DNA from: Acutalibacteraceae bacterium
Lineage (GTDB): Bacteria > Bacillota > Clostridia > Oscillospirales > Acutalibacteraceae
NCBI GenBank assembly: GCA_045596565.1
Contig: JAZOCQ010000154.1
Span: forward strand, 1-33,850
Reading direction: 5' to 3'
Length of the DNA stretch: 33,850 nucleotides
Shown: positions 929 through 26,279 of the stretch, piece after piece
How positions within the stretch are numbered: the first letter of the stretch is position 1
Layout of the letters: each line of letters opens with the position of its first letter
Notes under the pieces: generated by a model
Seen by the model: the letters and a program-made list of their open reading frames with translations, nothing else
Database searches by the model: none
What the model was told of the DNA's origin: nothing
Made by a program: the position numbers and the translations under genes

Positions 929-957
929 TTGCCATAAAAGCTGTTTTCGTGTATACT
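929..957 (+). promoter_or_regulatory. Sigma-A-type promoter for the desulfurase/thiI operon
   Basis: TTGCCA (929-934), a 17-nt spacer, then TATACT (952-957), just upstream of the first CDS. Confidence 0.45.
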
Positions 958-967
958 GTACTTAATT

Positions 968-2146
968 ATGGATTATGGAGTTGTATGCTTGAAAATCATC
1001 TATTTAGACAACAGTGCTACCACCGCCGTGTGCCCGCAAGCGACACAAAAAGCGGTACATATGATGCAGGAATGTTACGGCAACCCCTCCTCTTTGCACC
1101 GTTTAGGATTTGAAGCGGAAAAAGAAATAAACGCCGCCAGAGAAACGGTTGCCTCTATGATGGGGGTGCCCGCCCGCGACGTATATTTCACTTCGGGCGG
1201 TACCGAGGCAAACAACACCGCTGTTTTGGGTGCCGCCAGAGCACTTGCACGGCGCGGCAAACACGTCGTCACCACCGCGGTGGAACATTCCTCGATTGCG
1301 GCAGCGTGCGACTTGCTGGAACAAGAAGGATTTGAAGTCACACGACTTATGCCCGACCAAAACGGCTGTATTACACCCGCGGCAATTGCCGCCGCTTGCC
1401 GAGAGGACACCATTTTGGTATCGGTAATGTTGGTCAATAACGAAACGGGCGCACGGTTCCATCCCGAACTGGCAGTCCCGCTCATTCGCAAACGCGCCCC
1501 GCTCGCTTTCATTCACTGCGATGCCGTACAAGCCGCGGGCAAACTGCCGTTATATGGCGCAAAGTGGCAACTGGATGCCATGACCGTTTCCGCGCATAAA
1601 CTGCACGGCCCGAAAGGTTGCGGTGCGTTATATTTGCGGCGCGGCGCACGGATGAAACCGTTACTGCTGGGTGGTAAACAACAAGACGGTGTGCGTCCCG
1701 GCACCGAGGCTACACCACTGATTGCCGCTTTCGGTGCAGCGGTACAAGCGCTGCCGCCCGTATCTGCACAAGCAGAACTTTTTAAGACCTTACAGGACCG
1801 TTTGGTACAGCGCTTAACAACGCTGGATGGCGTTGTACTGCATTTGCCGCAAGACGGCGTGCCGTATATCATACACTTGTCTGCGGTAGGATTGCGCAGT
1901 GAAACAGTGTTGCACTTCTTGTCCGAACGCAACATTTTCGTGTCCAGCGGTTCTGCTTGCGCGAAAGGTGCAAAAAGTCCGGTGCTAACCGCTATGGGTC
2001 TGCCCGCAGCGGAAATTGACAGCGCTATCCGCGTCAGCTTATGTCATACCAATACTGCAGAGGATATCGACGCCTTTGCCGATACCCTTGCGCTGGCTAT
2101 TCAATCTATTGCAAGAAAAAAAGGAGTTTCCGGTTATGAATCGTGA
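968..2146 (+). CDS. Cysteine desulfurase, class V aminotransferase (NifS/IscS/NifZ-like, ThiI-associated)
   Basis: IYLDNSATT near the N-terminus, SAHKLHGPKG (PLP-binding lysine) and SSGSACA (catalytic Cys loop). It shares an operon with thiI. The start is either ATG 968 or TTG 989, which lies 8 nt after GGAG at 977-980. Confidence 0.88.
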   Translation: MDYGVVCLKIIYLDNSATTAVCPQATQKAVHMMQECYGNPSSLHRLGFEAEKEINAARETVASMMGVPARDVYFTSGGTEANNTAVLGAARALARRGKHVVTTAVEHSSIAAACDLLEQEGFEVTRLMPDQNGCITPAAIAAACREDTILVSVMLVNNETGARFHPELAVPLIRKRAPLAFIHCDAVQAAGKLPLYGAKWQLDAMTVSAHKLHGPKGCGALYLRRGARMKPLLLGGKQQDGVRPGTEATPLIAAFGAAVQALPPVSAQAELFKTLQDRLVQRLTTLDGVVLHLPQDGVPYIIHLSAVGLRSETVLHFLSERNIFVSSGSACAKGAKSPVLTAMGLPAAEIDSAIRVSLCHTNTAEDIDAFADTLALAIQSIARKKGVSGYES

Positions 2147-3848
2147 TTTTGACAAAAGAGAATATTCCGAGACGGAACAAGACGTATGGGACTTGCTGAA
2201 AAAACCACAGGAAGAAACCGTACCGTCGGATACGCAATATCATGAACAAGAGCTCGATGAAAAATCGTTACCGAAATTACCAGATACCTTGGACGCCGAT
2301 TTCTCCGATGTGCCACTGATTTTTCCTTTGGATGACGAGCAACCGGATTATACGGAGTTGGAAGTGATTGCCCCGTCACAAGAGGATACCACTGCCAACC
2401 AAGAGGAACAGGACAAGCCTCGGACTTTCGGTGAACATTTGCGCCGGCTTTTTCCGTCTAAAACAGATAGCGTTACTGAAAAAATACGCAAATGCGTAGT
2501 TTTGGTCTGCTTGCCGCTATGCATTGTTTCCCTATGCTTTTTGAGTTTTTACATGGTCATTGAGCCAAAACAAGTAGAGAACAGTAACCAATACTATACA
2601 TCACTGTATACCGAACCAACGGACGATACAACCACTAACGCCAATAACTATCCCGACGGGATGCAACTGTCTTTCCGTCGGTTATACGACGTCAACCCCG
2701 ACATCGCGGGTTGGTTGACGTTTACATCCACCGATACAGATGCTTTTTTGGATATCAATCTGCCGGTGGTACATTGCAACAATAACAGTACGTATCTATC
2801 CCGCTCGTTCGACGGCAAAAGAAGTCGTTCCGGCACGCTGTTCTTTGATGCGAGCAACGTCATTTCCAAAGATGTCGATAACAAAGTCAGCATCATCTAC
2901 GGCCACAACATGACAAGCGGTGCGATGTTCGCGGGTTTGAACAAACTGGTAAACAATCTCTACCGCGCACGCGCCGCAACCAACATCTCTCTCAACACAC
3001 TGTACGGTAACCAATATTACCAGGTGTTTGCGGTATTTGTGTCTGATGAAGACGCTACAAATGACACCTATTTCCCCTATTTGCGCACCGCGTTCGGCTC
3101 AGAAGAAGAATTTCTCGATTATGTCAACAATTTACGTGCACGCTCTATGTATGATTATCCCGTCACCGTCAGCGGTGATGACCAACTGCTGATTTTATCC
3201 ACCTGCACCAATAAAAGTCAGGTGAAACTCAGCAACGGCAGATTGGTCATCGTGGCGCGACGCGTCAAAAAAGGCGAAAATTTGCTGATGAATACCAACA
3301 AAATCGTGCAAAATGAAGACGTGATTATGCCGTACGCTTGGTATGCCGCGCATCAACTGTCCCCCCACGCGTATTACACGGAAAAAGACTATATGTTGGG
3401 AGAAGAGGACAATGGTGTGACCACTCCTCCTCTGACCGACGACACTGACGCGGAAACTACCACCACCAAGGACTCTGACGATACGGAAAACACCTCCGGC
3501 AACAGAACAACAACCACAAAGAGAGGAAATAAAACCACCAGCATACCTTCCTACAGAACATCGGTGCGCAACAACCGTACCACCACTACTGCTTCTTCTA
3601 CTACTGCCGCTACTAACGGTAAGACCGTTGCCGCAAATTCTACAACGACAACGACTACTACAACCACTGCCGGCGAACAAACAACCCCCTCTGAACAACA
3701 AACGACTCCCACTGAACAAGAAGCAACTACAACTACCACCACAGAAGAACAAACCACTGCCGCCTCACAAGAAGAAACGACCACCTCAACAACTACAACC
3801 ACCACCGAAAGCGAAACTTTGCAAACAGAAGGGACTCCAGATGAGTAA
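2136..3848 (+). CDS. Class B sortase-like membrane protein with an acidic N-terminal region and a Thr-rich C-terminal tail
   Basis: Track ORF 2016..3848. I prefer ATG 2136 (MNRDFDK), which follows AAAGGAG and overlaps the desulfurase stop. There is one TM segment (CVVLVCLPLCIVSLCFLSFYMVI). SrtB-like motifs are NPDIAGWL, IIYGHNM (His codon 2904-2906), LSTCT (Cys codon 3204-3206) and GRLVIVARR (Arg codon 3240-3242). About 140 aa of T/E/Q-rich low complexity follow. Confidence 0.7.
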   Translation: MNRDFDKREYSETEQDVWDLLKKPQEETVPSDTQYHEQELDEKSLPKLPDTLDADFSDVPLIFPLDDEQPDYTELEVIAPSQEDTTANQEEQDKPRTFGEHLRRLFPSKTDSVTEKIRKCVVLVCLPLCIVSLCFLSFYMVIEPKQVENSNQYYTSLYTEPTDDTTTNANNYPDGMQLSFRRLYDVNPDIAGWLTFTSTDTDAFLDINLPVVHCNNNSTYLSRSFDGKRSRSGTLFFDASNVISKDVDNKVSIIYGHNMTSGAMFAGLNKLVNNLYRARAATNISLNTLYGNQYYQVFAVFVSDEDATNDTYFPYLRTAFGSEEEFLDYVNNLRARSMYDYPVTVSGDDQLLILSTCTNKSQVKLSNGRLVIVARRVKKGENLLMNTNKIVQNEDVIMPYAWYAAHQLSPHAYYTEKDYMLGEEDNGVTTPPLTDDTDAETTTTKDSDDTENTSGNRTTTTKRGNKTTSIPSYRTSVRNNRTTTTASSTTAATNGKTVAANSTTTTTTTTTAGEQTTPSEQQTTPTEQEATTTTTTEEQTTAASQEETTTSTTTTTTESETLQTEGTPDE

Positions 3849-5022
3849 TACTACTTTGAAAGAAATTTTACTGATAAAAAACGGAGAGTTGGCACTCAAA
3901 GGTTTAAACCGCGGTACTTTTGAAGCCGTTCTCGTGAAAAATCTGCGATATCGTCTGCGCAAACTCGGACAGTTTACCATCCGCAAAGCACAGTCCACCA
4001 TTTATATTGAGCCCACCACCCCCGACGCGGATTTGGATGCGGCTGTGGACGCGGTGTCCCGCGTGTTCGGCATTGCGGGATTTTCCCGCGCTTGCGTCAC
4101 CGAAAAAGATATGAACGCCATCGGAGAAGCCGCCATTGGGTATCTCGAAACCGAATTATACGGTGCTTCCACCTTTAAAGTAGAGTCCAAACGTGCCGAC
4201 AAAGCATTTCCCTTTACCTCTCCTGAAATCAGCCGCGAAATCGGCGGTAAAATTTTAGAACATTACCCGCATCTCCGTGTGGACGTGCACAACCCCGATA
4301 TTACGGTGTATGTGGAAATCCGTGATTTTGGCGCGTATGTGCACGCACCGCAACTACCCGGTGCGGGCGGTATGCCGGTAGGTACCGGCGGTAAATGCGG
4401 TATTCTCATTTCCGGCGGTATCGACTCTCCCGTCGCCGCTTATATGATGGCAAAACGCGGTATTGAACTGACCGGCATTCATTTCGCCTCTCCTCCGTAC
4501 ACCAGTGAACGCGCCGAGCAAAAGGTTATCGACCTTTTAAAACAGGTTTCCACCTATGCGGGACGTATTCCGTTGCATATCGTGCCGTTCACCCATATTC
4601 AAGAAGAAATCCAGCGTAATTGCCCCGAGGAATATTTCACGCTGATTATGCGGCGATTTATGATGCGGCTTGCCTGTCGTATCGCCAAAACACAAGGTTG
4701 CGGCGCACTTATCACGGGTGAAAGCGTCGGACAGGTCGCCAGCCAAACCATTCCCGCGCTCGCTTGTACCGATGCCGTCACCGACCTGCCGATGTTCCGT
4801 CCGGTTATTGGTATGGACAAAGAAGAAATCGTTCGTATTTCCCGTAAAATCGGCACGTTTGATATTTCCATTCAACCGTTTGAGGATTGCTGTACCGTAT
4901 TTACACCGCGCCACCCCTGCACACGTCCCAAGGTAGACGCCGTTGCCAAAGCGGAAAGCGTGTTAGACGTTGACGGATTGGTAGAGGAAGCGTTGGCAGA
5001 CGTGCGTGTTATAAGAATTTAA
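3841..5022 (+). CDS. thiI: tRNA 4-thiouridine(8) synthase ThiI (short form, no rhodanese domain)
   Basis: Track ORF 3628..5022. The real start is ATG 3841 (MSNTTLKEILLIKNGELALKG), which overlaps the upstream stop (ATGAGTAA). It has the THUMP-like N-terminal region and the PP-loop ILISGGIDSPVAAY. At 393 aa it is typical of Firmicute ThiI. Confidence 0.9.
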   Translation: MSNTTLKEILLIKNGELALKGLNRGTFEAVLVKNLRYRLRKLGQFTIRKAQSTIYIEPTTPDADLDAAVDAVSRVFGIAGFSRACVTEKDMNAIGEAAIGYLETELYGASTFKVESKRADKAFPFTSPEISREIGGKILEHYPHLRVDVHNPDITVYVEIRDFGAYVHAPQLPGAGGMPVGTGGKCGILISGGIDSPVAAYMMAKRGIELTGIHFASPPYTSERAEQKVIDLLKQVSTYAGRIPLHIVPFTHIQEEIQRNCPEEYFTLIMRRFMMRLACRIAKTQGCGALITGESVGQVASQTIPALACTDAVTDLPMFRPVIGMDKEEIVRISRKIGTFDISIQPFEDCCTVFTPRHPCTRPKVDAVAKAESVLDVDGLVEEALADVRVIRI

Positions 5023-5048
5023 CTATTTTCAGTGAAAGGAGAAGCAGT

Positions 5049-6788
5049 ATGGCACAAACAGTATCTGCTGTCATTCATCAAACCGCGCAAAAAGTGGTAG
5101 ACATTTTATGTGCAAAAACACTTACTATTTCCACAGCAGAATCCTGCACTGCCGGTCTACTGTCCGCCGCCATCACCGAGATAGCAGGCGCATCTGCCGT
5201 GTTCGGTTGCGGAATTGCGGCATATTCTCCCACTATTAAACAACAACTCTTAGAGGTGCCCGCCGCCATATTGGAAGCGCACGGCACTGTCAGTTCTGAA
5301 ACCGCCGCCGCTATGGCAGACGGTGTGCGCCGTAAAAGCGGCGCGGATATAGGCGTCGCCATCACCGGTGTAGCGGGCCCCGCGCCCAGCGAGGGAAAAC
5401 CCGTGGGCACAGTACACATTGCACTTGCCGACAAGCAGCGCGTTTGGCTGACGAGATTACCGGAACAAGAAGGCGTACAAACGCGCGACAACATTCGCAA
5501 CGCCGCCGTGTTGGCCGCTCTTACTTTGGTGTTACAATATGCAGAAAATTTCCCGCTGATGATGGCGGGCAGTATACCGATTGTGGCATCGGAAAAAGCA
5601 CAAGTGGTCATCCCCGAACAACCGGCTACCCATCAGCGCAAACGCTTTTTGGCCACCGTTTTGCCGTGGCAAGGCGACTCCTTCAAAGAGCGAGCGTTTA
5701 AAATGGGCGGCATTTTTGCCGCGCTGTGCGTATTGACAGGCATCGTATCCGGCGGATATCAACTGTTTTCAGAAAGCGGAAACCGCTCATTATACAGCGA
5801 CCTGCAAAATATGTATACCACCGAACAATCCCAAACACAAACGTCCTTTGACCCCCATACTATTCTTCCGCGTTTTTCCTCGTTGGCGCTGCAAAACGCC
5901 GACATAGGTGGTTGGATACGTATTGCCAATACCGGCATCAACTATCCCGTGATGAAAAACGCCGGCAGTAATTATTATGCTGACCACAATTTCCGTCAGC
6001 AGTCGTCTGCCTACGGCGTACCATACTTCGATACCAATAACCATTTGGGTGCTACCGATAAGCAGGACAAGGTTTTGGTCATCTATGGTAACAATACGGG
6101 AGACGGACAGATGTTCTCGGATTTACTGTCCTACCGCGAAGCCTCCTTTTTCAAAAAACACGCGGTAGTAGAAATGAGCACGTTGTATGCGGCTGAACAA
6201 TGGGAGCTGTTTGCCGTTATGGTCATCGACCCGCAAGAGGTCAACGCATTTCCGTTTAACCAAACCGCATTTGAAGACGAAACGGCGTTTACCGACCACA
6301 TTGCGGGAATCCGCAAACGTTCCTTATTCAACACCAACGTCACCGTCAATGCCGACGACCATCTGCTTGTATTGGTGACCCAAGCGGAAAAGACGTACGG
6401 ATTTGACGGCGCAACCTTTGTGGTAGTAGGTAAACGACTGAGTCAGTCGGATGCGGCGAGCGAAAAAGAAACCTTAACCGTCACCAAAAACCAAACGGTG
6501 ATTATGCCGCGCGCGTGGGTGCGAAATCAACAACACATCGTCACCAAGCACACCACCGCCACCGAGACGCAAAGCACCACTACCAATACACAAAGCACGA
6601 CCACCACTAAGGCAGAAACAACCACAAACCCCACCTCTGCCACCACCGATATGCAACCGTCAACCACTGACAGCAGTACCCCCACCGACGATACAACGAC
6701 CACGCAGGTTACTACCACCGTGGATACCACTATCGCACAATCGCAAGCAACCACAACCACGGTGGCCGACCTGTCAGACGATACATAA
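5049..6788 (+). CDS. Fusion protein: CinA C-terminal (PncC/NMN-deamidase-like) domain + TM segment + sortase-B-like domain lacking the catalytic triad + Thr-rich tail
   Basis: RBS AAAGGAG lies upstream. Residues ~1-165 match the CinA-C/PncC domain (TISTAESCTAGLLSAAITEIAGAS...GVAITGVAGPAPSEGKPVGTVHIAL). A TM segment follows (GGIFAALCVLTGIVSGGYQLF). The next region is paralogous to ORF 2136..3848 (NADIGGWIRIANTGINYPV, VLVIYGNNT, LLVLVTQA, TFVVVGKRL). The C-terminus is a T-rich tail. Confidence 0.7.
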   Translation: MAQTVSAVIHQTAQKVVDILCAKTLTISTAESCTAGLLSAAITEIAGASAVFGCGIAAYSPTIKQQLLEVPAAILEAHGTVSSETAAAMADGVRRKSGADIGVAITGVAGPAPSEGKPVGTVHIALADKQRVWLTRLPEQEGVQTRDNIRNAAVLAALTLVLQYAENFPLMMAGSIPIVASEKAQVVIPEQPATHQRKRFLATVLPWQGDSFKERAFKMGGIFAALCVLTGIVSGGYQLFSESGNRSLYSDLQNMYTTEQSQTQTSFDPHTILPRFSSLALQNADIGGWIRIANTGINYPVMKNAGSNYYADHNFRQQSSAYGVPYFDTNNHLGATDKQDKVLVIYGNNTGDGQMFSDLLSYREASFFKKHAVVEMSTLYAAEQWELFAVMVIDPQEVNAFPFNQTAFEDETAFTDHIAGIRKRSLFNTNVTVNADDHLLVLVTQAEKTYGFDGATFVVVGKRLSQSDAASEKETLTVTKNQTVIMPRAWVRNQQHIVTKHTTATETQSTTTNTQSTTTTKAETTTNPTSATTDMQPSTTDSSTPTDDTTTTQVTTTVDTTIAQSQATTTTVADLSDDT

Positions 6789-6791
6789 AAA

Positions 6792-6824
6792 AAAGCGGTT
6801 TCGCCGTTATGGCGAAACCGCTTT
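6792..6824. terminator. Bidirectional rho-independent terminator
   Basis: AAAGCGGTTTCGCC (6792-6805), loop GTTAT, GGCGAAACCGCTTT (6811-6824). A/T runs flank both sides. It lies between convergent genes. Confidence 0.8.
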
Positions 6825-8265: not shown

Positions 8266-8291
8266 AAAAACTGCCGAAAGGCAGTTTTTTT
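8266..8291. terminator. Bidirectional rho-independent terminator
   Basis: AAAAACTGCC, loop GAAA, GGCAGTTTTT. It is followed by T-runs on both strands and lies between convergent genes. Confidence 0.8.
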
Positions 8292-8817
8292 ATGCTTTGT
8301 TTTCGCAAAAATGTGCAACGCCGTGCGCCATAAACGGTAGTACCAACATCACCAACGCATCAATGGCAAACAACGCCAACACGACCCACTTTTGCACCGA
8401 AAGTATGTATGCGCAAAATAATCCGGCCGCCACTGCTTGCAGTACGCCGGTCACCTGCAACAACACAATATCACTTTTCTTGCCGTAACTTGCCGCTACG
8501 GCTATCATGGGCAACGCCGCTTGCATACAAACCAACGTAGCCAGATACTCCGTCTGGAAACTACCAAAGACAGCTATGGCTACTAATAACAACGGTGAAG
8601 CGGCAAGCAAAAGTACCGTCAACACACGTGTAGCCACGCGCGCAGCCGTATATTTCCATAAAAAAACAGCCGGCAACGCCAACGCCACAGCCACTAACGC
8701 CAATAATAAAGATGTGATTTCCATCAGAGCAGACAGCGCTACCGTTATAAACGCAAATATTACCGTTGACTTTTTATACAACTCAATTGCTTCAGGTTTT
8801 TCTTTCCGCAGTGCCAT
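8290..8817 (-). CDS. Hypothetical polytopic membrane protein
   Basis: Track ORF 8290..8898. I prefer ATG 8817 after GGAGG (MALRKEKPEAIELYKKS). About 5 hydrophobic segments are visible. I recognised no family motif. Confidence 0.55.
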   Translation of the reverse strand: MALRKEKPEAIELYKKSTVIFAFITVALSALMEITSLLLALVAVALALPAVFLWKYTAARVATRVLTVLLLAASPLLLVAIAVFGSFQTEYLATLVCMQAALPMIAVAASYGKKSDIVLLQVTGVLQAVAAGLFCAYILSVQKWVVLALFAIDALVMLVLPFMAHGVAHFCENKA

Positions 8818-8870
8818 AACAACCTCCGAAACTTGTATTGCACATAGTATATCGTATTTTGTATCAAAAA

Positions 8871-9632
8871 TCAAGTAACACGCGTATGAATTGCCCACAC
8901 GTGCTTTTTCGTCGGCATAGTGGCATGACGACGAACACGCCGTATAATTTCAACACATACAGCAAAACGCGTAACCGAAAACGGTACGCCCGCCAACCAA
9001 AAACTACCAAAGTGTAAATGTAACAGTTGCCCGCTCCAACCTTTCGAGAGATAAAAACCACTAGAAATGGGAAAACCGCCCACTACTGCAGTTTCCAGTC
9101 GCCGCACGACAATCCACACCACTAACACACCCAGAACCGCCAATAAAATACCAATGCCCAAGAGCAACACTTTCACAACAGCTGTTTCTTCCCGCGCACC
9201 CCACGCTACTATAAACAGGGCCGGAAACAGTGCCGCCGCATACAACACGAAACGCCACACATCCCAACGGAGTTGGGATTTGATATGGGTGAGCGGATGC
9301 CGATAGACGCCAAAAAAACATTGCAGTAAGGTTCTGCCTTCCCACACAATATGCAAATTTTCCATCACACAGGTGTTTTGAGAGGGTGATGCCGTGAGCG
9401 TCGCGGCACGTTTTGCTGCTGCGTAATACCCCGCGTGTGCACAGGATACCAACACCCGATTGAAAAGCAAACTCCCACACAACAATGCCGTCTGCATGGT
9501 TGGCGTGAGCAGTACAAATCGCCGCACCAAAAATTCCACCGCTATCGGCAATAACCAACAAAGGTATGTCCACAACTGCATCACACAAATTTCCATACGA
9601 TGCGCTTTTGCAATCGCACAACTGCCCGCCAT
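8871..9632 (-). CDS. Hypothetical membrane protein
   Basis: Track ORF 8871..9707. The ATG at 9632 follows AGAGGGG. There are several hydrophobic segments (WLLPIAVEFLV, VLYAAALFPALFIVAW, LLLGIGILLAVLGVLVVWIVV). No motif was recognised and the start is uncertain. Confidence 0.45.
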   Translation of the reverse strand: MAGSCAIAKAHRMEICVMQLWTYLCWLLPIAVEFLVRRFVLLTPTMQTALLCGSLLFNRVLVSCAHAGYYAAAKRAATLTASPSQNTCVMENLHIVWEGRTLLQCFFGVYRHPLTHIKSQLRWDVWRFVLYAAALFPALFIVAWGAREETAVVKVLLLGIGILLAVLGVLVVWIVVRRLETAVVGGFPISSGFYLSKGWSGQLLHLHFGSFWLAGVPFSVTRFAVCVEIIRRVRRHATMPTKKHVWAIHTRVT

Positions 9633-9687
9633 ATACAACACCCCTCTTTCCATTACAGTATGGACAAAGAGGGGTATTTTTATCACG

Positions 9688-11004
9688 TTATACTCCCAGC
9701 TGTTCACGCAAGGTTGCTATACCATATAAAAACCAAATCACCTGTTCCGCATTACCGGCATCAATCGTTTTCCATGCATCGCCGTTTTTCTTCATTTTTT
9801 CCATATAAATGGTACCTTGATGGGTGCTGTTCAAAAACGAGAACGTGTCGTTAATATGGAACATATCCCCCGCCATCGCGGCGGCAGTAATATCCCAACC
9901 GACGCTTTTGCCCAGTATCCAATCTTTCACGGTACCGGAAGCACTGCATTCCACCGCGAGATACCCGCCGTTTTGGGTGCGTTGCCATAATTTTTCACGT
10001 GTATAGGCGGCAGTGTTTTGCAAAATTTGCGCATCCAATCCACTATACCCGCTCGCAAAGGCAGATAAGCATACCCAACTGACACCGTTTTCGGGGGTGG
10101 CATTGCCACCGTTAAAATACAGTTGCTCTAAGTATACCGTCTTGCCGTTCACTTCGCGGGTGAGGTTTTGTCGGATACCCGCCTGCAACTTATCCAATGT
10201 ACTTTGCCACAACACCATATCCACGTCTTTCCCGGTTTGCTTTGCGACCGCCACCATCTTTTCCAACGCCGCCGCTACAAAACTGTTGGTGAGAATATCG
10301 AAAACATCCACATAATCCGAGCCGTTATACAGTCTTGTATGGGTAAAACGGCGGTTGCGTACCAAACCTACATTCTCATAAAAATAGGTATCTGAGCAAA
10401 AAGCATCTGCTTCACGTTTCATCAATGCATACGTTTCGTCAAAATAGGCGGTGTCTTTACTTTTGAGAATATACAACGCCCATCCCAACACAAAATGTGC
10501 GCGTCCGTCTAATTCATCTTCGGTGCGCACGGTCGCGCGGTCGGCAGAAATGGTAAACGGTACGTATTGTAGGTTTTTCTCCTGCATAACGTCGGTGACA
10601 AAGCGCAGTGCTTTCCCCGCCGCAGCCGTTTCTCCCACCTTATCGGCCAAAATAGCAAATGCGCCGATAGACCGCACATATTCGCCCTTATACAATCCTG
10701 TCAGGGATTCCTGTAAAAAGCCATTTTCGGTCAATCGACCGAAAATGCTCTGATAACTGTCACGATATATATCCGCGACGTGGCTATCCTGCAACCGGGC
10801 ACGTACCGTATTTTCCACCGACCCCAAGGTCTTTACGGTCGTCGGCACGGTTGTGCTCGCAACAGTGGTGGTTGTCATTGTTGTGGTGGTAGCAGTGGTT
10901 GCGGTAACGCTCTGCTCAGTAACAGAAACACTATGTGTAGCAGACGGTACGGTACACCCGACTAACAATAACAAGCACAAACACAATGCTATAATTTTCG
11001 TCAT
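9688..11004 (-). CDS. Putative lipoprotein with a Thr-rich linker and a large uncharacterised extracytoplasmic domain
   Basis: The signal peptide carries a lipobox (MTKIIALCLCLLLLVGC). A linker TATTATTTTMTTTTVASTTVPTT follows, then a ~370-aa globular region. I cannot assign a family with confidence. Confidence 0.6.
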   Translation of the reverse strand: MTKIIALCLCLLLLVGCTVPSATHSVSVTEQSVTATTATTTTMTTTTVASTTVPTTVKTLGSVENTVRARLQDSHVADIYRDSYQSIFGRLTENGFLQESLTGLYKGEYVRSIGAFAILADKVGETAAAGKALRFVTDVMQEKNLQYVPFTISADRATVRTEDELDGRAHFVLGWALYILKSKDTAYFDETYALMKREADAFCSDTYFYENVGLVRNRRFTHTRLYNGSDYVDVFDILTNSFVAAALEKMVAVAKQTGKDVDMVLWQSTLDKLQAGIRQNLTREVNGKTVYLEQLYFNGGNATPENGVSWVCLSAFASGYSGLDAQILQNTAAYTREKLWQRTQNGGYLAVECSASGTVKDWILGKSVGWDITAAAMAGDMFHINDTFSFLNSTHQGTIYMEKMKKNGDAWKTIDAGNAEQVIWFLYGIATLREQLGV

Positions 11005-13120: not shown

Positions 13121-13471
13121 GGGGTCGTAAAGGTTTCGACGGGGATTGTGAGGTACGGTAAGCGAGTAGCGGTGCGGGCCCGCTTTAAAACCTGCAAACT
13201 TTAAAATTAAACGACAACAATACTGTTGCTCTGGCAGCCTAATTAGGCCGCCCGTCTTTACCCGAAGTACCACGGTTGGGATAAAGGCGTCGACTAGTGG
13301 TGAACGTGAACGGGAAGGTGCCACCCTCCCCGTCACGACGTAGTGGCTACCGTAGCAAATAGCCTGCCTATCGGCGATTTGTGAGGGGAATTCCAAAAGA
13401 TGAGGCTGCACTCGGAGAAAGCTGTATCAAGTGGTTTTCGGACAGGGGTTCGACTCCCCTCGGCTCCACCA
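13121..13471 (+). ncRNA. ssrA: Transfer-messenger RNA (tmRNA, SsrA)
   Basis: The 5' end GGGGTCGTAAAGGTTTCGACGGGG and the 3' end GGACAGGGGTTCGACTCCCCTCGGCTCCACCA form the tRNA-Ala-like acceptor and T-arm. The internal tag frame ends GAC AAC AAT ACT GTT GCT CTG GCA GCC TAA (13213-13242), giving ...DNNTVALAA, a typical proteolysis tag. Confidence 0.95.
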
Positions 13472-16307: not shown

Positions 16308-17048
16308 TTACAACCATTCTAATGCCATTGCAATCGCATGTGCCTTTTCAATCGACTGTATGCCGCCTACTGATTTGGCAATATGTCTACCCGCCACATC
16401 AAAGTTCGGGCGTCTGTCAGTCAAGTTATGACAATCACTGCCAAAAATCACCGGGACTCCCTGCTCTATCCACCGACGTACCCGTTTACGGGCGGGTTTA
16501 AACAGCATATCCTCGGTATTCACCTGCACCAAAGCATCGGGAAAGGTATAGAGTTCCGCGAAATCTTCGTCACTGTAGTAAGCGGCATACCGCGGTAAAT
16601 GTGCAAATATCGGTTTGCATCCTTGTTCAAAACACACCGCTTCAATTTCTTCTATCATCCAATTATCCAGCTGTGCATACGGCATTTCGAGCAGCATATA
16701 TGCCGACTCGCCGATGCACAGTTTTTGAATATCACGCGCGGTGGACAACCCTTTTTCCAAGCGCACCTCTGCACCTATAACCAAGCGTGGCACATCTTCG
16801 GTGTATGCCGATTGCAATGTTTGCAAAGCGGCGTCCCGCCGCCCCAAAAAAGCAGCGGGTGTTTCTGCATGCGCAAAATAATGCGGGGTAAGTAACACCG
16901 TTTGCACACCGTATTTGCGCGACAGCGTCAGCATTTCAACTGCTTGCTGGACATCCCGCGCGCCGTCGTCCATGCCCGGTAAAATATGGGTATGGCAATC
17001 AATCTTCAGAGGATTCTTGTTTGCTCGTATACACATACTTATATCCAT
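16308..17048 (-). CDS. PHP-family protein-tyrosine phosphatase (CpsB/YwqE-like)
   Basis: IDCHTHILPGMDDGA matches the CpsB N-terminal metal motif. LLTPHY and GSDCHN also fit the family. The start is ATG 17048 or 17036, and both overlap the 3' end of the kinase gene. The longer track ORF start at 17237 is unlikely. Confidence 0.8.
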   Translation of the reverse strand: MDISMCIRANKNPLKIDCHTHILPGMDDGARDVQQAVEMLTLSRKYGVQTVLLTPHYFAHAETPAAFLGRRDAALQTLQSAYTEDVPRLVIGAEVRLEKGLSTARDIQKLCIGESAYMLLEMPYAQLDNWMIEEIEAVCFEQGCKPIFAHLPRYAAYYSDEDFAELYTFPDALVQVNTEDMLFKPARKRVRRWIEQGVPVIFGSDCHNLTDRRPNFDVAGRHIAKSVGGIQSIEKAHAIAMALEWL

Positions 17049-17742
17049 ACCGTTTTCTGTAATATTGCCGTTGTCCTTCCTCGGCTTCATAACGATAGTC
17101 ATTGATAATGACGCCAAGCAGATTGCCTTGCACGTTCTGCACTCTTTCGGTTGCTTCGCGCAAGTCGTCATAGGTAGTGCTATTATACCGGCTGAGCAAC
17201 ACCACGCCCGCCGCACGCGCCGCCAACACCAACGCATCGGTAACGACGTTCACGGGGGGCATATCTATAAACACATAATCATATTGTTCGGAAACCGTGT
17301 CGAGCAAAGTCGCCATACGATTAGAACCGAGCAATTCCGAAGGATTAGGCGGAATTGGACCGGACGGTATCAAATCCACGCCGGGCGCCACTTCCTTTTT
17401 CACGCACGCCTGCCAATCGTCCGGATTGGCCAAATAACGAGTCAAACCTTCTCCTTTGAGCACGTGGAACATACGATGCAAAGTGGGTTTGCGCAAATCG
17501 GCATCAATCAACAGCACCTTACTACCGGTCTGCGCCATCATCACGGCAAGGTTGCCGCAAACAGTGGATTTCCCAACGTTGGGTTCGGGAGACGATACGA
17601 TAATAATCTTCTTTTGAATGGGCGCAAGCGAGAACAATAAATTCGCGCGCAACTTTTTATAAGCTTCTACCACAAGGGCTACGTCATTTTTGGCATAAGA
17701 CAAATACGATTTGCCGGCTCGTTTTTTACGCATCATTTCCAT
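16999..17742 (-). CDS. Bacterial tyrosine kinase, cytoplasmic ATPase subunit (CpsD/CapB/PtkA-like BY-kinase)
   Basis: Walker A is SSPEPNVGKST, Walker A' is LLIDADLRKP and Walker B is YDYVFIDMPP. The C-terminal tyrosine cluster is YYRKRYGYKYVY. Confidence 0.88.
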   Translation of the reverse strand: MEMMRKKRAGKSYLSYAKNDVALVVEAYKKLRANLLFSLAPIQKKIIIVSSPEPNVGKSTVCGNLAVMMAQTGSKVLLIDADLRKPTLHRMFHVLKGEGLTRYLANPDDWQACVKKEVAPGVDLIPSGPIPPNPSELLGSNRMATLLDTVSEQYDYVFIDMPPVNVVTDALVLAARAAGVVLLSRYNSTTYDDLREATERVQNVQGNLLGVIINDYRYEAEEGQRQYYRKRYGYKYVYTSKQESSED

Positions 17743-18442
17743 CTCCCTTTTTACGTGGTTTTACAGATTGTTCAAAATGCGGCACAACACCCAGTACAGG
17801 CACCTTCAAATTCTCTTTGAGCGCCGCTGTGGTTTTAACGGTTTTGTCTGTCAGATGTCGCAGCAAAACATACCCCGCCGCCGCCGCCGCGCCAAGCAAA
17901 AATCCAAGCGTCGTCATACGCGATACGTTCGGTGAGGTTTTTGAACCGGGCGAAGCCTTGCCAATCACCTTTATCGAACCGGCGGACACGACGTCGTTAA
18001 GCACTTGCGGTGCCAGTTCTGCCATCGCATTGCACACTTCTGCTGCGAAATTCGGGTCATCTGCCACTACTTTAATGCGCATCATAGCCGTATTGGCAAT
18101 GCTGGATAATGAAATCATATCCGAAAGCTCTTGTGCCGTCACGGGACGACTGAGCAACGGCAATATTCTATCAATGGTGGAGCGATTTTTCAGCACGTCT
18201 ACATATGTCAACGACAACCATTCCGCCGTCAGCAGATTGTTGTACGAGATATTATCCCCCGTATCCTGCATAGCGTCGGTCAAACTGGACACATACATTG
18301 TCACGCTGGTAACATATTTTTCCTCCATCAGGAAATTGGCTGCCGCGCCTAAGAGAATGGCACCGATGACAGCAAATATCAATAGCAATTTCCACTTAGA
18401 AATCAGCAGTCTGTATATAACCTGCAAATCTAACTGTTGCAT
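17726..18442 (-). CDS. Wzz/CpsC-type transmembrane modulator of the BY-kinase
   Basis: I prefer ATG 18442 after GGAGG. An N-terminal TM (LLLIFAVIGAILLGAAANFL) and a C-terminal TM (TTLGFLLGAAAAAGYVLL) bracket a periplasm-like domain. It overlaps the downstream kinase gene. Confidence 0.8.
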   Translation of the reverse strand: MQQLDLQVIYRLLISKWKLLLIFAVIGAILLGAAANFLMEEKYVTSVTMYVSSLTDAMQDTGDNISYNNLLTAEWLSLTYVDVLKNRSTIDRILPLLSRPVTAQELSDMISLSSIANTAMMRIKVVADDPNFAAEVCNAMAELAPQVLNDVVSAGSIKVIGKASPGSKTSPNVSRMTTLGFLLGAAAAAGYVLLRHLTDKTVKTTAALKENLKVPVLGVVPHFEQSVKPRKKGDGNDA

Positions 18443-18473
18443 ATAAAACGCCTCCACACTTTGTTTTTAAATC

Positions 18474-22354: not shown

Positions 22355-22428
22355 TGGAGCGGAAGACGGGAATCGAACCCGCATATTCAGCTTGGGAAGC
22401 TGACGTTCTGCCACTGAACTACTCCCGC
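22355..22428 (-). tRNA. tRNA-Gly (anticodon CCC)
   Basis: The reverse complement is GCGGGAGTAGTTCAGTGGCAGAACGTCAGCTTCCCAAGCTGAATATGCGGGTTCGATTCCCGTCTTCCGCTCCA. It folds as a 74-nt cloverleaf with a 7-bp acceptor, D-arm GTTC/GAAC, anticodon stem TCAGC/GCTGA with loop TTCCCAA, the GGTTCGATTCC T-loop and an encoded CCA. Confidence 0.93.
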
Positions 22429-24502: not shown

Positions 24503-24540
24503 GTTGACAAACAAATTCCAATTTGCAAAGGACGGGAACT

Positions 24541-25623
24541 ATGCAAGAAAAGGTTTTAGTTGCCATGAGCGGCGGTGTGGACAGCGCCATGACGGCTGCG
24601 TTGTTATTGGATGCCGGCTGTGAAGTTTTGGGTGCCACCATGCAACTGTATTGCGGTGAAAAAGATGAAAATGTATGCGGTTCCCGCAAAGATGCGGACG
24701 ATGCGGCGGCACTTGCCGCCACGCTCGGTTTTCCGCATGAAATCCTGCAACTGAGCAGGGATTTTGACCGTGAAGTGGTGCGCCGTTTCGCAGACGGATA
24801 CCTGTGCGGTGAAACGCCCAACCCTTGCATTGAATGTAACCGTTATATGAAATTCGGCCGTCTGATTGCACTGGCAAAAGCGCGCGGTTTTGATGCGATT
24901 GCCACCGGTCATTATGCCCGCGTGGAAAAGGACAAAAAAAGTGGACGGTTTTTATTAAAAAAAGCGGTAGATGCGTCCAAAGACCAGACATATGTGCTGT
25001 ATCATCTGACACAAGACCAACTGGCACATACACGGTTTCCGTTAGGCGAATACCATAAAAGCGAAATCCGTCAAATGGCGGCGGCACGCGGATTTTCCAT
25101 GGCGAGTAAACCCGATAGCCAGGATATTTGCTTTGTTCCCGACGGCAATTATGCCGCTTTCTTAAAACGATATACACATACGACCATTCCAAACGGCAAC
25201 TATCTGGATATAAACGGCAAAACACTGGGTATCCATAAAGGGCATATTCACTACACCATCGGTCAGCGAAAAGGACTGGGTGTAGCTTTCGGACAACCTA
25301 TGTATGTCATCGACAAAAACGCGGTGAGAAACACCGTCACACTCGGTACAAAAGAGCAATTGCCTTGTACCTCTTTATTTGCAGATGATGTCAACTGGAT
25401 TGCCATTGACAACCTCAAAGCACCCATACGGGTAACGGTCAAAACACGGTATCATCAACCCGAAACGCCCGCAACGGTATCTGCTGTGCAGGGTGGCGTT
25501 TTGGTGACATTGGATACGCCGCAGGTTGCAGCACCCGGACAAGCGGTGGTATTTTACGATGGTGACACCGTCGTAGGCGGCGGTACCATTCGTCGCATTC
25601 GACAAAAGGGGTGCGACAAATGA
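24541..25623 (+). CDS. mnmA: tRNA-specific 2-thiouridylase MnmA
   Basis: I prefer ATG 24541. The PP-loop is VLVAMSGGVDSAMTA. Also present are CIECNRYMKFG, ATGHYAR and DQTYVL. The protein is 360 aa. Confidence 0.92.
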   Translation: MQEKVLVAMSGGVDSAMTAALLLDAGCEVLGATMQLYCGEKDENVCGSRKDADDAAALAATLGFPHEILQLSRDFDREVVRRFADGYLCGETPNPCIECNRYMKFGRLIALAKARGFDAIATGHYARVEKDKKSGRFLLKKAVDASKDQTYVLYHLTQDQLAHTRFPLGEYHKSEIRQMAAARGFSMASKPDSQDICFVPDGNYAAFLKRYTHTTIPNGNYLDINGKTLGIHKGHIHYTIGQRKGLGVAFGQPMYVIDKNAVRNTVTLGTKEQLPCTSLFADDVNWIAIDNLKAPIRVTVKTRYHQPETPATVSAVQGGVLVTLDTPQVAAPGQAVVFYDGDTVVGGGTIRRIRQKGCDK

Positions 25624-26279
25624 AAAAAATCGCAATTATTCACACCGATTTTCCTGAAAAATTCGGTATCCCCCGCCAAAGCGGATTGGTGGACACCGAC
25701 GGCGTGATTGAATTTTTACCGCCCTATCGGGACGTGTCAGCGGTACGCGGTTTGGAAGGTTTTTCTCATATTTGGCTATTATGGGAATTTTCCGCCAATC
25801 CGCAAGGCGATTGGTCCCCCACCGTGCGCCCGCCACGGCTGGGCGGCAACACCCGCATGGGCGTGTTTGCCACCCGCTCACCCTTTCGTCCCAATCCTAT
25901 CGGTTTATCCTGTGTGGAGTTAAAAGGCATTGATTTGAAAGGGGAAAACGCACCGCGCCTGTTGGTGAACGGTGCGGATTTGATGGACGGTACGCCGATT
26001 TACGATATCAAACCGTATCTCCCCCACGCCGATTGCAAACCGGAAGCGAGCGGCGGTTTCGCACAACCGCTCACCGATTACGCTTTAAAAGTGGAAATCC
26101 CCTCCCATCTGCAAATCGAAAAGCGGGAAACATTGATACGCATTTTAGAACAAGACCCGCGCCCTTCCTATCACGATGATACCCGCACATACGGTATGTC
26201 GTTTGACGGCTATGAAATCAAATTTTATGTTGAAAACGGCACGCTGTTTGTCACCGATGCCAAAAGAGGAAAAAACTGA
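25620..26279 (+). CDS. trmO: tRNA (N6-threonylcarbamoyladenosine(37)-N6)-methyltransferase TrmO (TsaA/YaeB family)
   Basis: ATG 25620 overlaps the mnmA stop (ATGA). FGIPRQSG, GFSHIWLLWEF and GVFATRSPFRPNPIGLS are the TsaA-like beta-barrel motifs. Confidence 0.85.
   Translation: MKKIAIIHTDFPEKFGIPRQSGLVDTDGVIEFLPPYRDVSAVRGLEGFSHIWLLWEFSANPQGDWSPTVRPPRLGGNTRMGVFATRSPFRPNPIGLSCVELKGIDLKGENAPRLLVNGADLMDGTPIYDIKPYLPHADCKPEASGGFAQPLTDYALKVEIPSHLQIEKRETLIRILEQDPRPSYHDDTRTYGMSFDGYEIKFYVENGTLFVTDAKRGKN

What the first reader, a model, noticed from the sequence alone, without database searches (positions are those of the whole stretch)
5049..6788. Single ORF fusing a cytoplasmic CinA-C/PncC domain, through one TM helix, to an extracellular sortase-like domain that has lost His, Cys and Arg
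Residues 1-165 are a CinA C-terminal (NMN-deamidase-type) domain. After a linker and one TM helix comes a domain clearly paralogous to the upstream sortase-like protein (NADIGGWIRI... against NPDIAGWLTF...).

At the three catalytic positions the paralogs differ as follows:
- His: IIYGHNM becomes VIYGNNT, with Asn at codon 6090-6092.
- Cys: LSTCT becomes LVTQA, with Gln at codon 6381-6383.
- Arg: GRLVIVARR becomes ATFVVVGKR, with Thr at codon 6414-6416.

The frame stays open for 579 codons, so this does not look like a decaying pseudogene. A pseudo-sortase tethered to a cytoplasmic nucleotide-metabolism domain could be a sensor or scaffold, or a partner of the intact paralog. I know of no described CinA-sortase fusion, although I cannot search for one here.
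Basis: partly seen in the sequence, partly recalled or inferred. Interest (0 to 1): 0.7.

Follow-up and report, generated by a model that had tools for sequence, protein, structure and literature searches.

The report
CinA enzyme fused to dead sortase
This gene really does encode a membrane protein with an intact-looking cytoplasmic CinA/PncC-type amidohydrolase domain joined to an outside-facing sortase B fold that has lost its catalytic residues. It belongs to a large, unstudied Clostridia family in which cinA and sortase-B-like genes are always neighbours or fused, which gives a testable lead on what CinA does.

Summary
ORF 5049-6788 (579 aa) has four parts:
- a CinA_C/PncC domain with every conserved active-site residue;
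- one transmembrane helix;
- a class B sortase fold (TM-score 0.92 to S. aureus SrtB) with Asn, Gln and Thr in place of His, Cys and Arg, and no cysteine in the ectodomain;
- a disordered Thr-rich tail.

It is not an artefact or a pseudogene. More than 100 independent protein clusters share the architecture, and the dead domain is under strong purifying selection (dN/dS 0.08).

The wider context is new. Across Clostridia, a neighbourhood nifS-thiI-cinA-srtB-like(x1-3)-(SpoIID-like) occurs in three states:
- unfused;
- CinA fused to an intact sortase, sometimes followed by a dead-sortase::SpoIID protein;
- as here, an intact SrtB-like gene (2136-3848) lies between nifS and thiI, and CinA is fused to the dead sortase.

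All 8 loci of the third type keep the intact partner.

Best reading: the protein is a non-catalytic subunit of a membrane complex with the intact paralog, and it tethers an active CinA domain. This is inferred, not shown. I found no literature on it. I rate it a new variant of known kinds, of moderate to high interest.

The parts
929..957 (+). Promoter-like site (TTGCCA-17-TATACT) upstream of the four-gene unit
   Evidence: Consensus scan only, 10 of 12 matches. Weak evidence.
968..2146 (+). nifS/iscS-type cysteine desulfurase, first gene of the unit
   Evidence: Pfam Aminotran_5, E=8e-72. Conserved at this position in all related loci.
2136..3848 (+). Intact SrtB-like paralog of 570 aa: acidic disordered N-terminus, juxtamembrane motif, TM helix, sortase B domain with His/Cys/Arg (IIYGHNM, LSTCT, GRLVIVARR), C-terminal extension and Thr-rich tail. 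Proposed active partner.
   Evidence: TIGR03064 E=5.5e-41 and Pfam Sortase E=3e-10. The triad is retained in all orthologues. The start overlaps the nifS stop by 11 nt and the stop overlaps the thiI start by 11 nt.
3838..5022 (+). thiI (tRNA 4-thiouridine / thiamine sulfurtransferase)
   Evidence: Pfam ThiI_fer + THUMP + ThiI, E=8e-67.
5035..5041 (+). Shine-Dalgarno sequence AAAGGAG, 7 nt before the ATG
   Evidence: Read directly from the sequence.
5049..6788 (+). The finding: CinA_C :: TM :: pseudo-sortase B :: Thr-rich tail, 579 aa
5049..5543 (+). Cytoplasmic CinA C-terminal / PncC-type amidohydrolase domain (residues 1-165). Ser32 is the codon at 5142-5144 and Lys64 the codon at 5238-5240.
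   Evidence: PF02464 E=7.7e-49. Foldseek TMt 0.88-0.93 to 2a9s and 5kvk. All 17 most-conserved AtCinA positions, including the S31/K63 dyad (PMC5384747), are present at a +1 offset and invariant in the family. pLDDT about 95.
5544..5702 (+). Linker plus conserved cytoplasmic juxtamembrane motif (L-P-W-Q-G-D-S-F-K-E-R-A-F-K, residues 205-218, nt 5661-5702)
   Evidence: The motif (L/F/I)-P-x-(K/R)-G-D...E..R-K is shared by active and dead modules across 153 sequences. Residues 185-198 have low pLDDT.
5703..5771 (+). Single transmembrane helix (residues about 219-241), N-in / C-out
   Evidence: Kyte-Doolittle peak 1.78, net charge +3 before and -3 after. AF2 predicts a continuous helix 212-262. 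It aligns with the strongly hydrophobic TM of the paralog. The topology is inferred, not shown.
5772..6539 (+). Extracytoplasmic pseudo-sortase B domain with a family-specific C-terminal extension (residues 242-497). Asn348 (6090-6092), Gln445 (6381-6383) and Thr456 (6414-6416) occupy the His, Cys and Arg positions. The extension motif N-Q-T-V-I-M-P-R-A-W-V spans residues 481-491 (nt 6489-6521).
   Evidence: TIGR03064 E=6e-38, below cut-off. Foldseek versus 4lfd gives TMt 0.92 and E=2e-20. No Cys in the ectodomain. dN/dS 0.076 against the orthologue in L001. The extension motif is conserved in 140-144 of 153 modules.
6540..6785 (+). Disordered Thr-rich tail (44% Thr, 54% Ser+Thr)
   Evidence: Composition. 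pLDDT about 32. Long relatives carry a SpoIID-like domain of about 400 aa at this position.
6792..6824 (.). 15-bp G+C-rich hairpin that terminates the unit and also serves the convergent gene
   Evidence: Terminator scan on both strands.

Best explanation
**What the protein is (shown)**
The ORF encodes a real, conserved bitopic membrane protein.
- The N-terminal CinA_C/PncC-type Ser/Lys amidohydrolase domain is cytoplasmic. By sequence it looks catalytically competent.
- After one TM helix, the C-terminal part outside the membrane is a sortase B fold. It can no longer act as a cysteine transpeptidase, because it has no Cys, no His and no Arg at the catalytic positions.
- This dead domain has also lost two conserved sorting-signal contact residues.

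**How it most likely works (inferred)**
- The dead sortase is a structural, non-catalytic subunit. It pairs with the intact SrtB-like paralog encoded two genes upstream in the same operon.
- Together they form a membrane complex that holds the CinA enzyme at the cytoplasmic face.
- In relatives the same complex also carries a SpoIID-like peptidoglycan-acting domain.

**Likely origin (inferred)**
- The family derives from a conserved Clostridia neighbourhood, nifS-thiI-cinA-srtB-like(x1-3)-SpoIID-like.
- Gene fusions joined CinA to the active sortase in some lineages and to the dead sortase in this one.
- The window's lineage later lost the CinA N-terminal MoCF and KH domains and the C-terminal SpoIID-like domain.
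For: **Real and under selection**
- 120 listed homologues (36-84% identity) share the architecture.
- At the His position, 117 of 120 have Asn. At the Cys position, 0 of 120 have Cys; Gln (86) or Asp (24) replaces it.
- dN/dS is 0.076 for the pseudo-sortase domain, 0.093 for CinA and 0.115 for the partner's sortase domain.
- The AF2 model has mean pLDDT 81.5. Both folds are confirmed by Foldseek.

**CinA domain looks active**
- All positions conserved in AtCinA are kept, including the S31/K63 dyad.

**Evidence for a partnership**
- The order nifS, intact SrtB-like, thiI, CinA::pseudoSrtB is kept in the window, L001, L002, L004, L005/6, L007/8, L011 and L096. The flanking genes differ between these loci.
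- The reciprocal look-up from the partner family returns the same cassette.
- In L009 and L012, CinA is fused to an intact sortase and the next gene is a pseudoSrtB::SpoIID protein.
- In 8 further loci, cinA and 1-3 intact srtB-like genes are separate but adjacent.
- Both paralogs share a cytoplasmic juxtamembrane motif and an ectodomain C-terminal extension that crystallised SrtBs lack.
- Start and stop codons overlap within the operon, and a single terminator follows it.

**Dead for sorting**
- The equivalents of SaSrtB N92 and L96 are conserved in 84 of 94 and 82 of 94 active modules. They are variable in the 55 dead modules.
Against: - No physical interaction was tested. I could not run a heterodimer prediction.
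- The pairing rule is not universal in the wider family. L014 and L013 have CinA::SrtB(HCR) with no second sortase-like gene beside it.
- Deep nodes of the NJ tree are poorly supported, at 6-64%, so the order of fusion events is tentative.
- No protein with a classic sorting signal lies in the window, so even the partner's substrate is unknown.
- Conserved gene order alongside nifS-thiI could reflect operon inertia rather than a shared function.
- NMN deamidase activity of the CinA domain is inferred from sequence only.
Confidence: 0.5

Rival explanations
1. Transmembrane sensor. The dead sortase fold binds an extracellular ligand, such as a peptide or a peptidoglycan fragment, and transmits this through the single TM helix to switch the cytoplasmic CinA amidohydrolase.
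For: - The architecture resembles a receptor: ectodomain, one long helix 212-262, then an enzyme.
- CinA_C domains form compact dimers (PMC5384747), which would allow signalling through a dimer.
- The ectodomain is under strong purifying selection.
Against: - The linker between the CinA domain and the juxtamembrane motif is poorly conserved and has low confidence (residues 185-198). That is a poor conduit for allostery.
- In many relatives cinA and the sortase-like gene are separate genes, so covalent coupling is not required.
- The sorting-signal contact residues are degraded.
- This model does not explain why an intact paralog is always retained.
Confidence: 0.15
2. Pure anchor or localisation device. 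The TM helix and wall-associated ectodomain only position CinA at the membrane or at a particular cell-wall site, with no interaction with the intact paralog.
For: - CinA is fused to different members of the module family in different lineages. This suggests that membrane tethering itself matters.
- Long relatives carry a peptidoglycan-related SpoIID-like domain.
- From my own knowledge, not checked here: pneumococcal CinA was reported to be membrane-associated (Masure et al. 1998).
Against: - A simple anchor would not need about 250 residues held at dN/dS 0.076.
- Nor would it need a conserved juxtamembrane motif and C-terminal extension shared with the active paralog.
- It does not explain the 8 of 8 co-occurrence with the partner.
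Confidence: 0.2
3. Neo-enzyme. The Asn/Gln(Asp) residues in the old active site support a new chemistry, such as hydrolysis or binding-coupled catalysis on peptidoglycan.
For: - Asn is nearly invariant at the His position among close homologues (117 of 120). Gln or Asp is recurrent at the Cys position.
- The residues flanking the old active site (Y346, G347, N349, T444, L442) remain conserved.
Against: - Across the dead modules the replacements vary: N/K/S/Q/R/A at the His position and D/N/P/Q/T/G/E at the Cys position. Arg is kept in some and lost in others.
- That variation is not what a conserved new catalytic set would show.
Confidence: 0.07
4. Artefact or decay: an assembly or frameshift fusion of two genes, or a pseudogene that has not yet acquired stop codons.
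For: None was found beyond the loss of the catalytic residues.
Against: - The same fusion appears in more than 100 clusters from independent NCBI, ENA, Logan and JGI assemblies, on contigs up to 440 kb.
- The region is under purifying selection.
- The AF2 model is confident.
- The Shine-Dalgarno site and terminator are placed correctly.
Confidence: 0.01

Closest known systems
Class B sortases (S. aureus SrtB 1ng5/4lfd, B. anthracis SrtB 2oqw, C. difficile SrtB 5gyj)
   Same: - Same fold: Foldseek TMt 0.86-0.92 at 24-27% identity.
- Same membrane-anchored, outward-facing arrangement.
- Conserved N-x-D-I-x-G-W, Y-P-V and Y-G-x-N scaffold motifs.
   Different: - His, Cys and Arg are replaced by Asn, Gln and Thr, and the ectodomain has no Cys.
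- The N92 and L96 substrate-contact equivalents are degraded.
- It scores below the TIGR03064 cut-off and gives no Pfam Sortase hit.
- It has extra conserved elements: a cytoplasmic juxtamembrane motif and an N-x-x-x-x-M-P-x-x-W-Y C-terminal extension.
- It carries a 165-aa cytoplasmic enzyme at the N-terminus and a Thr-rich tail.
- No substrate with a sorting signal lies nearby.
CinA / PncC NMN deamidases (A. tumefaciens AtCinA 2a9s, T. thermophilus CinA 4ct8, S. mutans 6mr3)
   Same: - The CinA_C domain has the full conserved residue set, including the Ser/Lys dyad.
- Fold TMt 0.88-0.93 at 38-41% identity.
   Different: - Known CinA proteins are soluble. They are either CinA_C alone or MoCF-KH-CinA_C. 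This one lacks MoCF and KH and is fused to a TM helix and an ectodomain.
- Relatives keep the full-length CinA in the fusion.
Bacterial cell-envelope pseudoenzymes that partner active enzymes, such as degenerate LytM factors EnvC/NlpD activating amidases, or SpoIIQ (from established knowledge, not tested here)
   Same: A catalytically dead copy of an envelope enzyme fold, kept under selection and genetically linked to an active enzyme.
   Different: - The fold family is different.
- The partner here is its own paralog.
- No interaction or activation has been shown.
- The dead copy also carries a cytoplasmic metabolic enzyme.
CinA::SrtB fusions with an intact triad, and pseudoSrtB::SpoIID proteins (e.g. 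P0155, P0186; the downstream genes in L009 and L012). They are uncharacterised and carry only automated annotation.
   Same: - Same module: juxtamembrane motif, TM helix, SrtB fold and C-terminal extension.
- Same operon context after nifS-thiI.
   Different: - In those loci CinA sits on the active sortase, and the dead sortase carries the SpoIID-like domain.
- In the window CinA sits on the dead sortase, and the SpoIID-like domain has been replaced by a Thr-rich tail.

Membership tests
CinA C-terminal / PncC domain (PF02464, TIGR00199) | Profile match above the curated cut-off | tested here: met
   PF02464 scores 165.7 bits against 23.5. TIGR00199 scores 128.8 against 68.9.
CinA C-terminal / PncC domain (PF02464, TIGR00199) | Ser/Lys catalytic dyad and the conserved active-site set (AtCinA E30 S31 C32 T33 G35 G46 S48 Y58 K63 M88 T105 G106 A108 G109 P110 G120 R145) | tested here: met
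   All positions are present at a +1 offset (E31 S32 C33 T34 G36 G47 S49 Y59 K64 M89 T106 G107 A109 G110 P111 G120 R146). They are invariant in the 55-sequence family alignment.
CinA C-terminal / PncC domain (PF02464, TIGR00199) | CinA_C three-dimensional fold | tested here: met
   Foldseek TMt 0.88-0.93 and rmsd 1.2-1.7 to 2a9s, 5kvk and 6l19.
CinA C-terminal / PncC domain (PF02464, TIGR00199) | NMN to NaMN deamidase activity | not testable with these tools
   This needs an enzyme assay. Family members with other activities exist; NCBIfam lists a 2-oxo-tetronate isomerase model as a weaker hit.
Full-length CinA (NF001813 / TIGR00200: MoCF_biosynth + KH + CinA_C) | N-terminal COG1058/MoCF pyrophosphatase domain and KH domain | tested here: not met
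   Only model positions 259-410 of 414 match, at 152 bits against a cut-off of 379. Relatives such as P0128 and P0155 do have all three domains.
Class B sortase (TIGR03064 / PF04203) | Profile match above the curated cut-off | tested here: not met
   TIGR03064 scores 130.4 bits against 153.75. PF04203 gives no hit at E<=0.01.
Class B sortase (TIGR03064 / PF04203) | Sortase B beta-barrel fold | tested here: met
   TMt 0.92 to 4lfd and 0.90 to 2oqw. The domain has pLDDT of about 90.
Class B sortase (TIGR03064 / PF04203) | Catalytic Cys in the TLxTC motif | tested here: not met
   The sequence is LVTQA, with Gln445 (CAA). There is no Cys in residues 242-500, and 0 of 120 homologues have Cys at this column.
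Class B sortase (TIGR03064 / PF04203) | Catalytic His (YGH motif) | tested here: not met
   The sequence is YGNN, with Asn348. 117 of 120 homologues have Asn here.
Class B sortase (TIGR03064 / PF04203) | Catalytic Arg on strand beta8 | tested here: not met
   Thr456 occupies this position. Arg is retained in the more distant dead relatives.
Class B sortase (TIGR03064 / PF04203) | Sorting-signal contact residues (SaSrtB N92, L96, Y128, Y181 and others, per PMC5118464) | tested here: inconclusive
   Y128 and Y181 are kept as aromatics (Y346, F403). N92 becomes Ser307 and L96 becomes Ala311, and both positions vary across the dead modules. The mapping rests on a sequence alignment only.
Class B sortase (TIGR03064 / PF04203) | Membrane anchor with an extracytoplasmic catalytic domain | tested here: met
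   One hydrophobic helix at 219-241, with a positive-inside charge bias and no N-terminal signal peptide. The topology is inferred.
Class B sortase (TIGR03064 / PF04203) | Cognate substrate with a C-terminal sorting signal encoded nearby | tested here: not met
   None of the 100 ORFs of at least 100 aa in the window ends with a hydrophobic stretch followed by a basic tail. The rest of the genome was not available.

The most novel reading that the evidence does not exclude
In Clostridia, CinA may not be a free housekeeping NAD-salvage enzyme. It may be the cytoplasmic subunit of a transmembrane cell-wall machine built from sortase-B-like paralogs (one active, one dead) and a SpoIID-like peptidoglycan enzyme. 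In that case the dead sortase couples events on the two sides of the membrane. One possibility is that the Ser/Lys amidohydrolase acts on a lipid-linked wall precursor or a nucleotide signal that gates the outside transpeptidation. That would give CinA a cell-envelope function that decades of work on competence and DNA damage have missed.
Probability: 0.12. Interest if true: 0.85.

Novelty: new variant of a known kind. Interest (0 to 1): 0.62.

Why it matters
- **CinA's role is unclear.** CinA is near-universal in bacteria, yet its physiological role is still uncertain. Proposals include NMN recycling, ADP-ribose and NAD-adduct pyrophosphatase activity, and competence. A lineage-wide genetic and physical link to membrane sortase-B-like proteins is an unexpected lead that can be tested directly.
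- **No dead sortase has been described.** Sortases are treated as obligate Cys-His-Arg transpeptidases. I found no paper that describes a catalytically dead sortase fold kept under strong selection, or active/dead sortase pairs. If the pairing model holds, it adds a pseudoenzyme layer to sortase biology in abundant gut Clostridia (Acutalibacteraceae and Oscillospiraceae).
- **Annotation consequence.** Automated pipelines label these proteins 'SrtB family sortase' or 'nicotinamide-nucleotide amidohydrolase family protein'. Each label is only half right.

Tried and rejected
- **Shifted triad:** rejected. The ectodomain has no Cys, and the structure and sequence alignments place Asn, Gln and Thr at the catalytic positions.
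- **Assembly artefact or pseudogene:** rejected.
- **Recent local duplication of the upstream gene:** not supported. In the NJ tree the dead module groups with other dead modules, many of them SpoIID-linked. The upstream gene groups (96%) with its own orthologues, next to a CinA::SrtB(HCR) protein. Deep nodes are weak, however.
- **Sorting-signal substrate in the window:** none found.
- **Riboswitch or other RNA regulator of the operon:** none found. Rfam detects only a tmRNA and a tRNA elsewhere in the window.
- **Strict rule that a dead sortase always accompanies an active one:** fails. The gene after the fusion in L014 is not sortase-like, and L013 has none either.
- **L003, from the genome scan:** an ordinary 222-aa SrtB next to a large surface protein. 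It is irrelevant here.
- **Metagenome scan:** most of the 80 loci were plain cinA genes. Only 8 were informative.
- **Literature searches:** searches for pseudo-sortase, CinA plus sortase, and SpoIID plus sortase B returned nothing relevant. My first literature query was badly designed, because 'cina' also matched cinacalcet.
- **Second structure job and two remaining homology searches:** left unused, as they were not decisive.
Full report

Yes.

ORF and signals:
- The window has a single 579-codon ORF at 5049..6788 (+).
- AAAGGAG lies 7 nt upstream of the ATG.
- A 15-bp hairpin terminator at 6792-6824 follows the stop codon.

Domain matches:
- Pfam places a CinA domain at residues 11-164 (E=7.7e-49).
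- NCBIfam places its PncC-domain model above cut-off. It places the class B sortase model TIGR03064 at residues 230-447 with E=6e-38, but at 130 bits this is below the 153.75-bit equivalog cut-off.
- Pfam's Sortase model does not hit at all.

Catalytic positions:
- They align with His130 and Arg233 of S. aureus SrtB, and Gln445 lies beside its Cys223, in HMMER alignments to solved structures; all three align exactly in a MAFFT alignment with SaSrtB added.
- The window protein has no cysteine between residues 242 and 500.

Topology:
- One hydrophobic helix lies at about 219-241, with a +3/-3 charge bias, and there is no signal peptide. This predicts a cytoplasmic N-terminus and an external C-terminus.

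**2. Structure**

An AlphaFold2 model built on a 55-sequence alignment has mean pLDDT 81.5. The CinA domain scores about 95 and the sortase-like domain about 90. Helix 212-262 is continuous through the membrane, and the tail 499-579 is disordered.

Foldseek against the PDB gave two sets of matches:
- The ectodomain matches class B sortases: 4lfd at TMt 0.92 and E=2e-20, and 2oqw at 0.90.
- The N-terminal domain matches single-domain CinA/PncC proteins at TMt 0.88-0.93.

**3. Not an artefact and not decaying**

A search of 5.8 billion proteins returned 120 listed homologues at 36-84% identity. All carry CinA, and they come from independent NCBI, ENA, Logan and JGI assemblies.

In their alignment:
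- the His column is Asn in 117 of 120;
- the Cys column is Gln (86) or Asp (24) and is never Cys;
- the Arg column is Thr in the close relatives but is retained as Arg in the distant ones.

Against the 84%-identical orthologue in an Acutalibacteraceae MAG (L001), dN/dS is 0.093 for CinA and 0.076 for the pseudo-sortase domain. The sortase domain of the intact upstream paralog gives 0.115. The dead domain is therefore at least as constrained as the live ones.

**4. The CinA half looks catalytically competent**

A mutational study of A. tumefaciens CinA defines the most conserved family positions and supports an S31/K63 dyad (PMC5384747). All 17 positions are present in the window protein at a +1 offset (S32, K64 and the rest). 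They are invariant across the fusion family.

The protein lacks the MoCF pyrophosphatase and KH domains of full-length CinA. More distant members of the same fusion family retain them.

**5. Surroundings**

The gene is the last of a tight four-gene unit:
- nifS/iscS, 968-2146;
- an intact SrtB-like gene, 2136-3848;
- thiI, 3838-5022;
- the finding, 5049-6788.

The first two junctions have 11-nt start/stop overlaps. A promoter-like site lies at 929-957, and a single terminator follows the last gene.

The upstream protein keeps IIYGHNM, LSTCT and GRLVIVARR. Its homology to the finding (E=9e-32) covers more than the sortase domain. It extends over a cytoplasmic juxtamembrane motif, the TM helix, a post-domain extension and a Thr-rich tail.

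The rest of the window is ordinary chromosome: ruvC, uppP/bacA, capsule genes, mnmA, trmO, a U32 peptidase, an ABC-F protein, mgtE, a tmRNA and a tRNA.

**6. The wider family**

I searched 1.84 billion representatives exhaustively with the module alone (residues 196-500). This gave 139 hits at E<=1e-30.

Classifying the top 150 gave the following:
- 63 carry CinA_C.
- About 29 of those have an intact His/Cys/Arg triad.
- About 34 of those are degenerate.
- At the His position the degenerate ones have N, K, S, Q, R or A. At the Cys position they have D, N, Q, T, G, E or P.

Many members, both active and dead, carry a C-terminal SpoIID-like domain of about 400 aa. That includes all the 1,100-1,200-aa CinA::pseudo-sortase proteins.

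Gene-neighbourhood look-ups show three states of one conserved cluster.

| State | Gene order | Loci |
|---|---|---|
| i. Unfused | nifS-thiI-cinA-srtB-like(x1-3, all intact)-(SpoIID-like) | L016, L017, L024, L029, L046, L057, L067, L080 |
| ii. Type A | nifS-thiI-CinA::SrtB(intact), then a pseudoSrtB::SpoIID protein in L009 and L012, but not in L014 or L013 | L009, L012, L014, L013 |
| iii. Type B | nifS-SrtB(intact)-thiI-CinA::pseudoSrtB(::SpoIID) | window, L001, L002, L004, L005/6, L007/8, L011, L096 |

All 8 type B loci keep the intact partner, although their flanking genes differ.

All 153 aligned modules share two hallmarks that crystallised SrtBs lack:
- a cytoplasmic (L/F/I)-P-x-(K/R)-G-D...E..R-K motif;
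- an external N-x-x-(P/V)-(L/I)-(M/Y)-P-x-x-W-Y extension.

An NJ tree gave the following groupings:
- The dead modules group together, with SpoIID-linked ones at the base.
- The window-type short form is a 100%-supported derived subclade.
- The upstream partner family is a 96% clade. Its sister is a CinA::SrtB(HCR) protein.
- Deep nodes are weakly supported, so the order of events is tentative.

**7. How it most likely works**

Shown:
- The protein is a conserved bitopic fusion.
- The CinA active-site residues are intact.
- The sortase fold lacks the triad.

Also, the SaSrtB sorting-signal contacts N92 and L96 (PMC5118464) are conserved in 84 of 94 and 82 of 94 active modules. They are variable in the 55 dead ones, and in the window protein they are Ser307 and Ala311. 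The dead domain therefore probably no longer binds a sorting signal in the canonical way.

Inferred:
- An intact paralog is always retained beside the dead one in this lineage.
- CinA is attached to the active member in some lineages, to the dead member in others, and is merely adjacent in the rest.

The most economical model from these two points is one membrane complex that contains CinA, an active SrtB-like enzyme and a dead SrtB-like subunit, ancestrally with a SpoIID-like peptidoglycan domain. I put this at about 0.5.

Rivals:
- a ligand sensor that controls CinA, 0.15;
- a pure anchor, 0.2;
- a neo-enzyme, 0.07, disfavoured by the variability of the replacement residues;
- an artefact or pseudogene, 0.01.

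**8. Comparison with what is known**

The two halves belong to known kinds: the CinA_C/PncC family, where membership is met, and the class B sortase fold, where the fold is met but the catalytic and profile criteria are not. The protein should therefore not be filed as a sortase.

The nearest functional analogy is the envelope pseudoenzymes that partner active enzymes, such as the degenerate LytM factors. That analogy comes from my own knowledge and was not tested here.

Literature and annotation:
- Full-text searches found no paper on pseudo-sortases, CinA-sortase fusions or SpoIID-sortase B links.
- A 2021 review of sortase roles mentions no inactive or fused forms.
- Database names are automated only: 'SrtB family sortase', 'nicotinamide-nucleotide amidohydrolase family protein' and 'class B sortase [Oscillospiraceae bacterium]'.
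- Subscription-only literature and InterPro architecture tables could not be searched.

**9. Verdict**

- The feature is a new variant of known kinds and sits within a large undescribed family.
- The mechanistic model is comparative-genomic inference that awaits interaction and activity tests.
- Interest is 0.62.

Noticed in passing
window 2136-3848 (+): The intact SrtB-like paralog has an unusual build for a sortase. It has an acidic, disordered cytoplasmic N-terminus of about 115 aa with a short conserved opening motif (MNRDF..E.EQ.I..LLK, also present in L001, L002 and L007). It also has a Thr-rich tail of about 140 aa that ends in a recurring QTEGT motif (window, L001, L007). Its start and stop codons overlap nifS and thiI by 11 nt each.
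   Followed up: partly
L016 6498-7937; L017 5652-7994; L029 408-2303: In three of the eight unfused relatives, cinA and the following srtB-like gene are in the same reading frame and separated by a single stop codon. Loss of that stop codon, or readthrough, would be enough to create a fusion. One in three is also what chance would give.
   Followed up: no
P0128, P0130, P0133, P0138, P0146, P0148, P0153, P0159, P0234; L096 9848-13303: Long relatives (1,100-1,200 aa) combine full-length CinA, a TM helix, a dead sortase and a SpoIID-like domain of about 400 aa in one chain. Pfam's SpoIID model detects the last domain in only one of them. Local iterative searches link all of them.
   Followed up: partly
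window 13121-13471 (+): A tmRNA gene (Rfam 158 bits) with tag peptide DNNTVALAA.
   Followed up: no
window 22355-22428 (-): A tRNA-Gly (CCC) gene.
   Followed up: no
window 9688-11004 (-): A 438-aa predicted lipoprotein (MTKIIALCLCLLLLVGC lipobox) with a Thr-rich linker and no Pfam match. Thr-rich spacers appear to be a general feature of this organism's surface proteins.
   Followed up: no
window 24523-26279 (+) and 26635-28698 (-): More tRNA-modification genes lie in the same 33-kb window as nifS-thiI: mnmA, trmO and a U32 peptidase/collagenase-family protein.
   Followed up: no
window 16308-18457 (-): A block of capsule or exopolysaccharide regulators: a CpsB/CapC-type phosphatase, a ParA/MinD-like tyrosine-kinase-type ATPase and a Wzz chain-length determinant.
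   Followed up: no
window 8290-8898 (-) and 8871-9707 (-): Two overlapping ORFs for hydrophobic, multi-pass membrane proteins (202 and 278 aa) with no Pfam match. L001 has ORFs of 175 and 254 aa at the corresponding position.
   Followed up: no
L014 9990-10925: In one type A locus, the gene after CinA::SrtB(HCR) is not sortase-like. It encodes a 311-aa protein with a cytoplasmic domain and a C-terminal TM helix and has no Pfam hit. A Sm_multidrug_ex gene follows it, and the same gene family follows the cluster in L009.
   Followed up: partly
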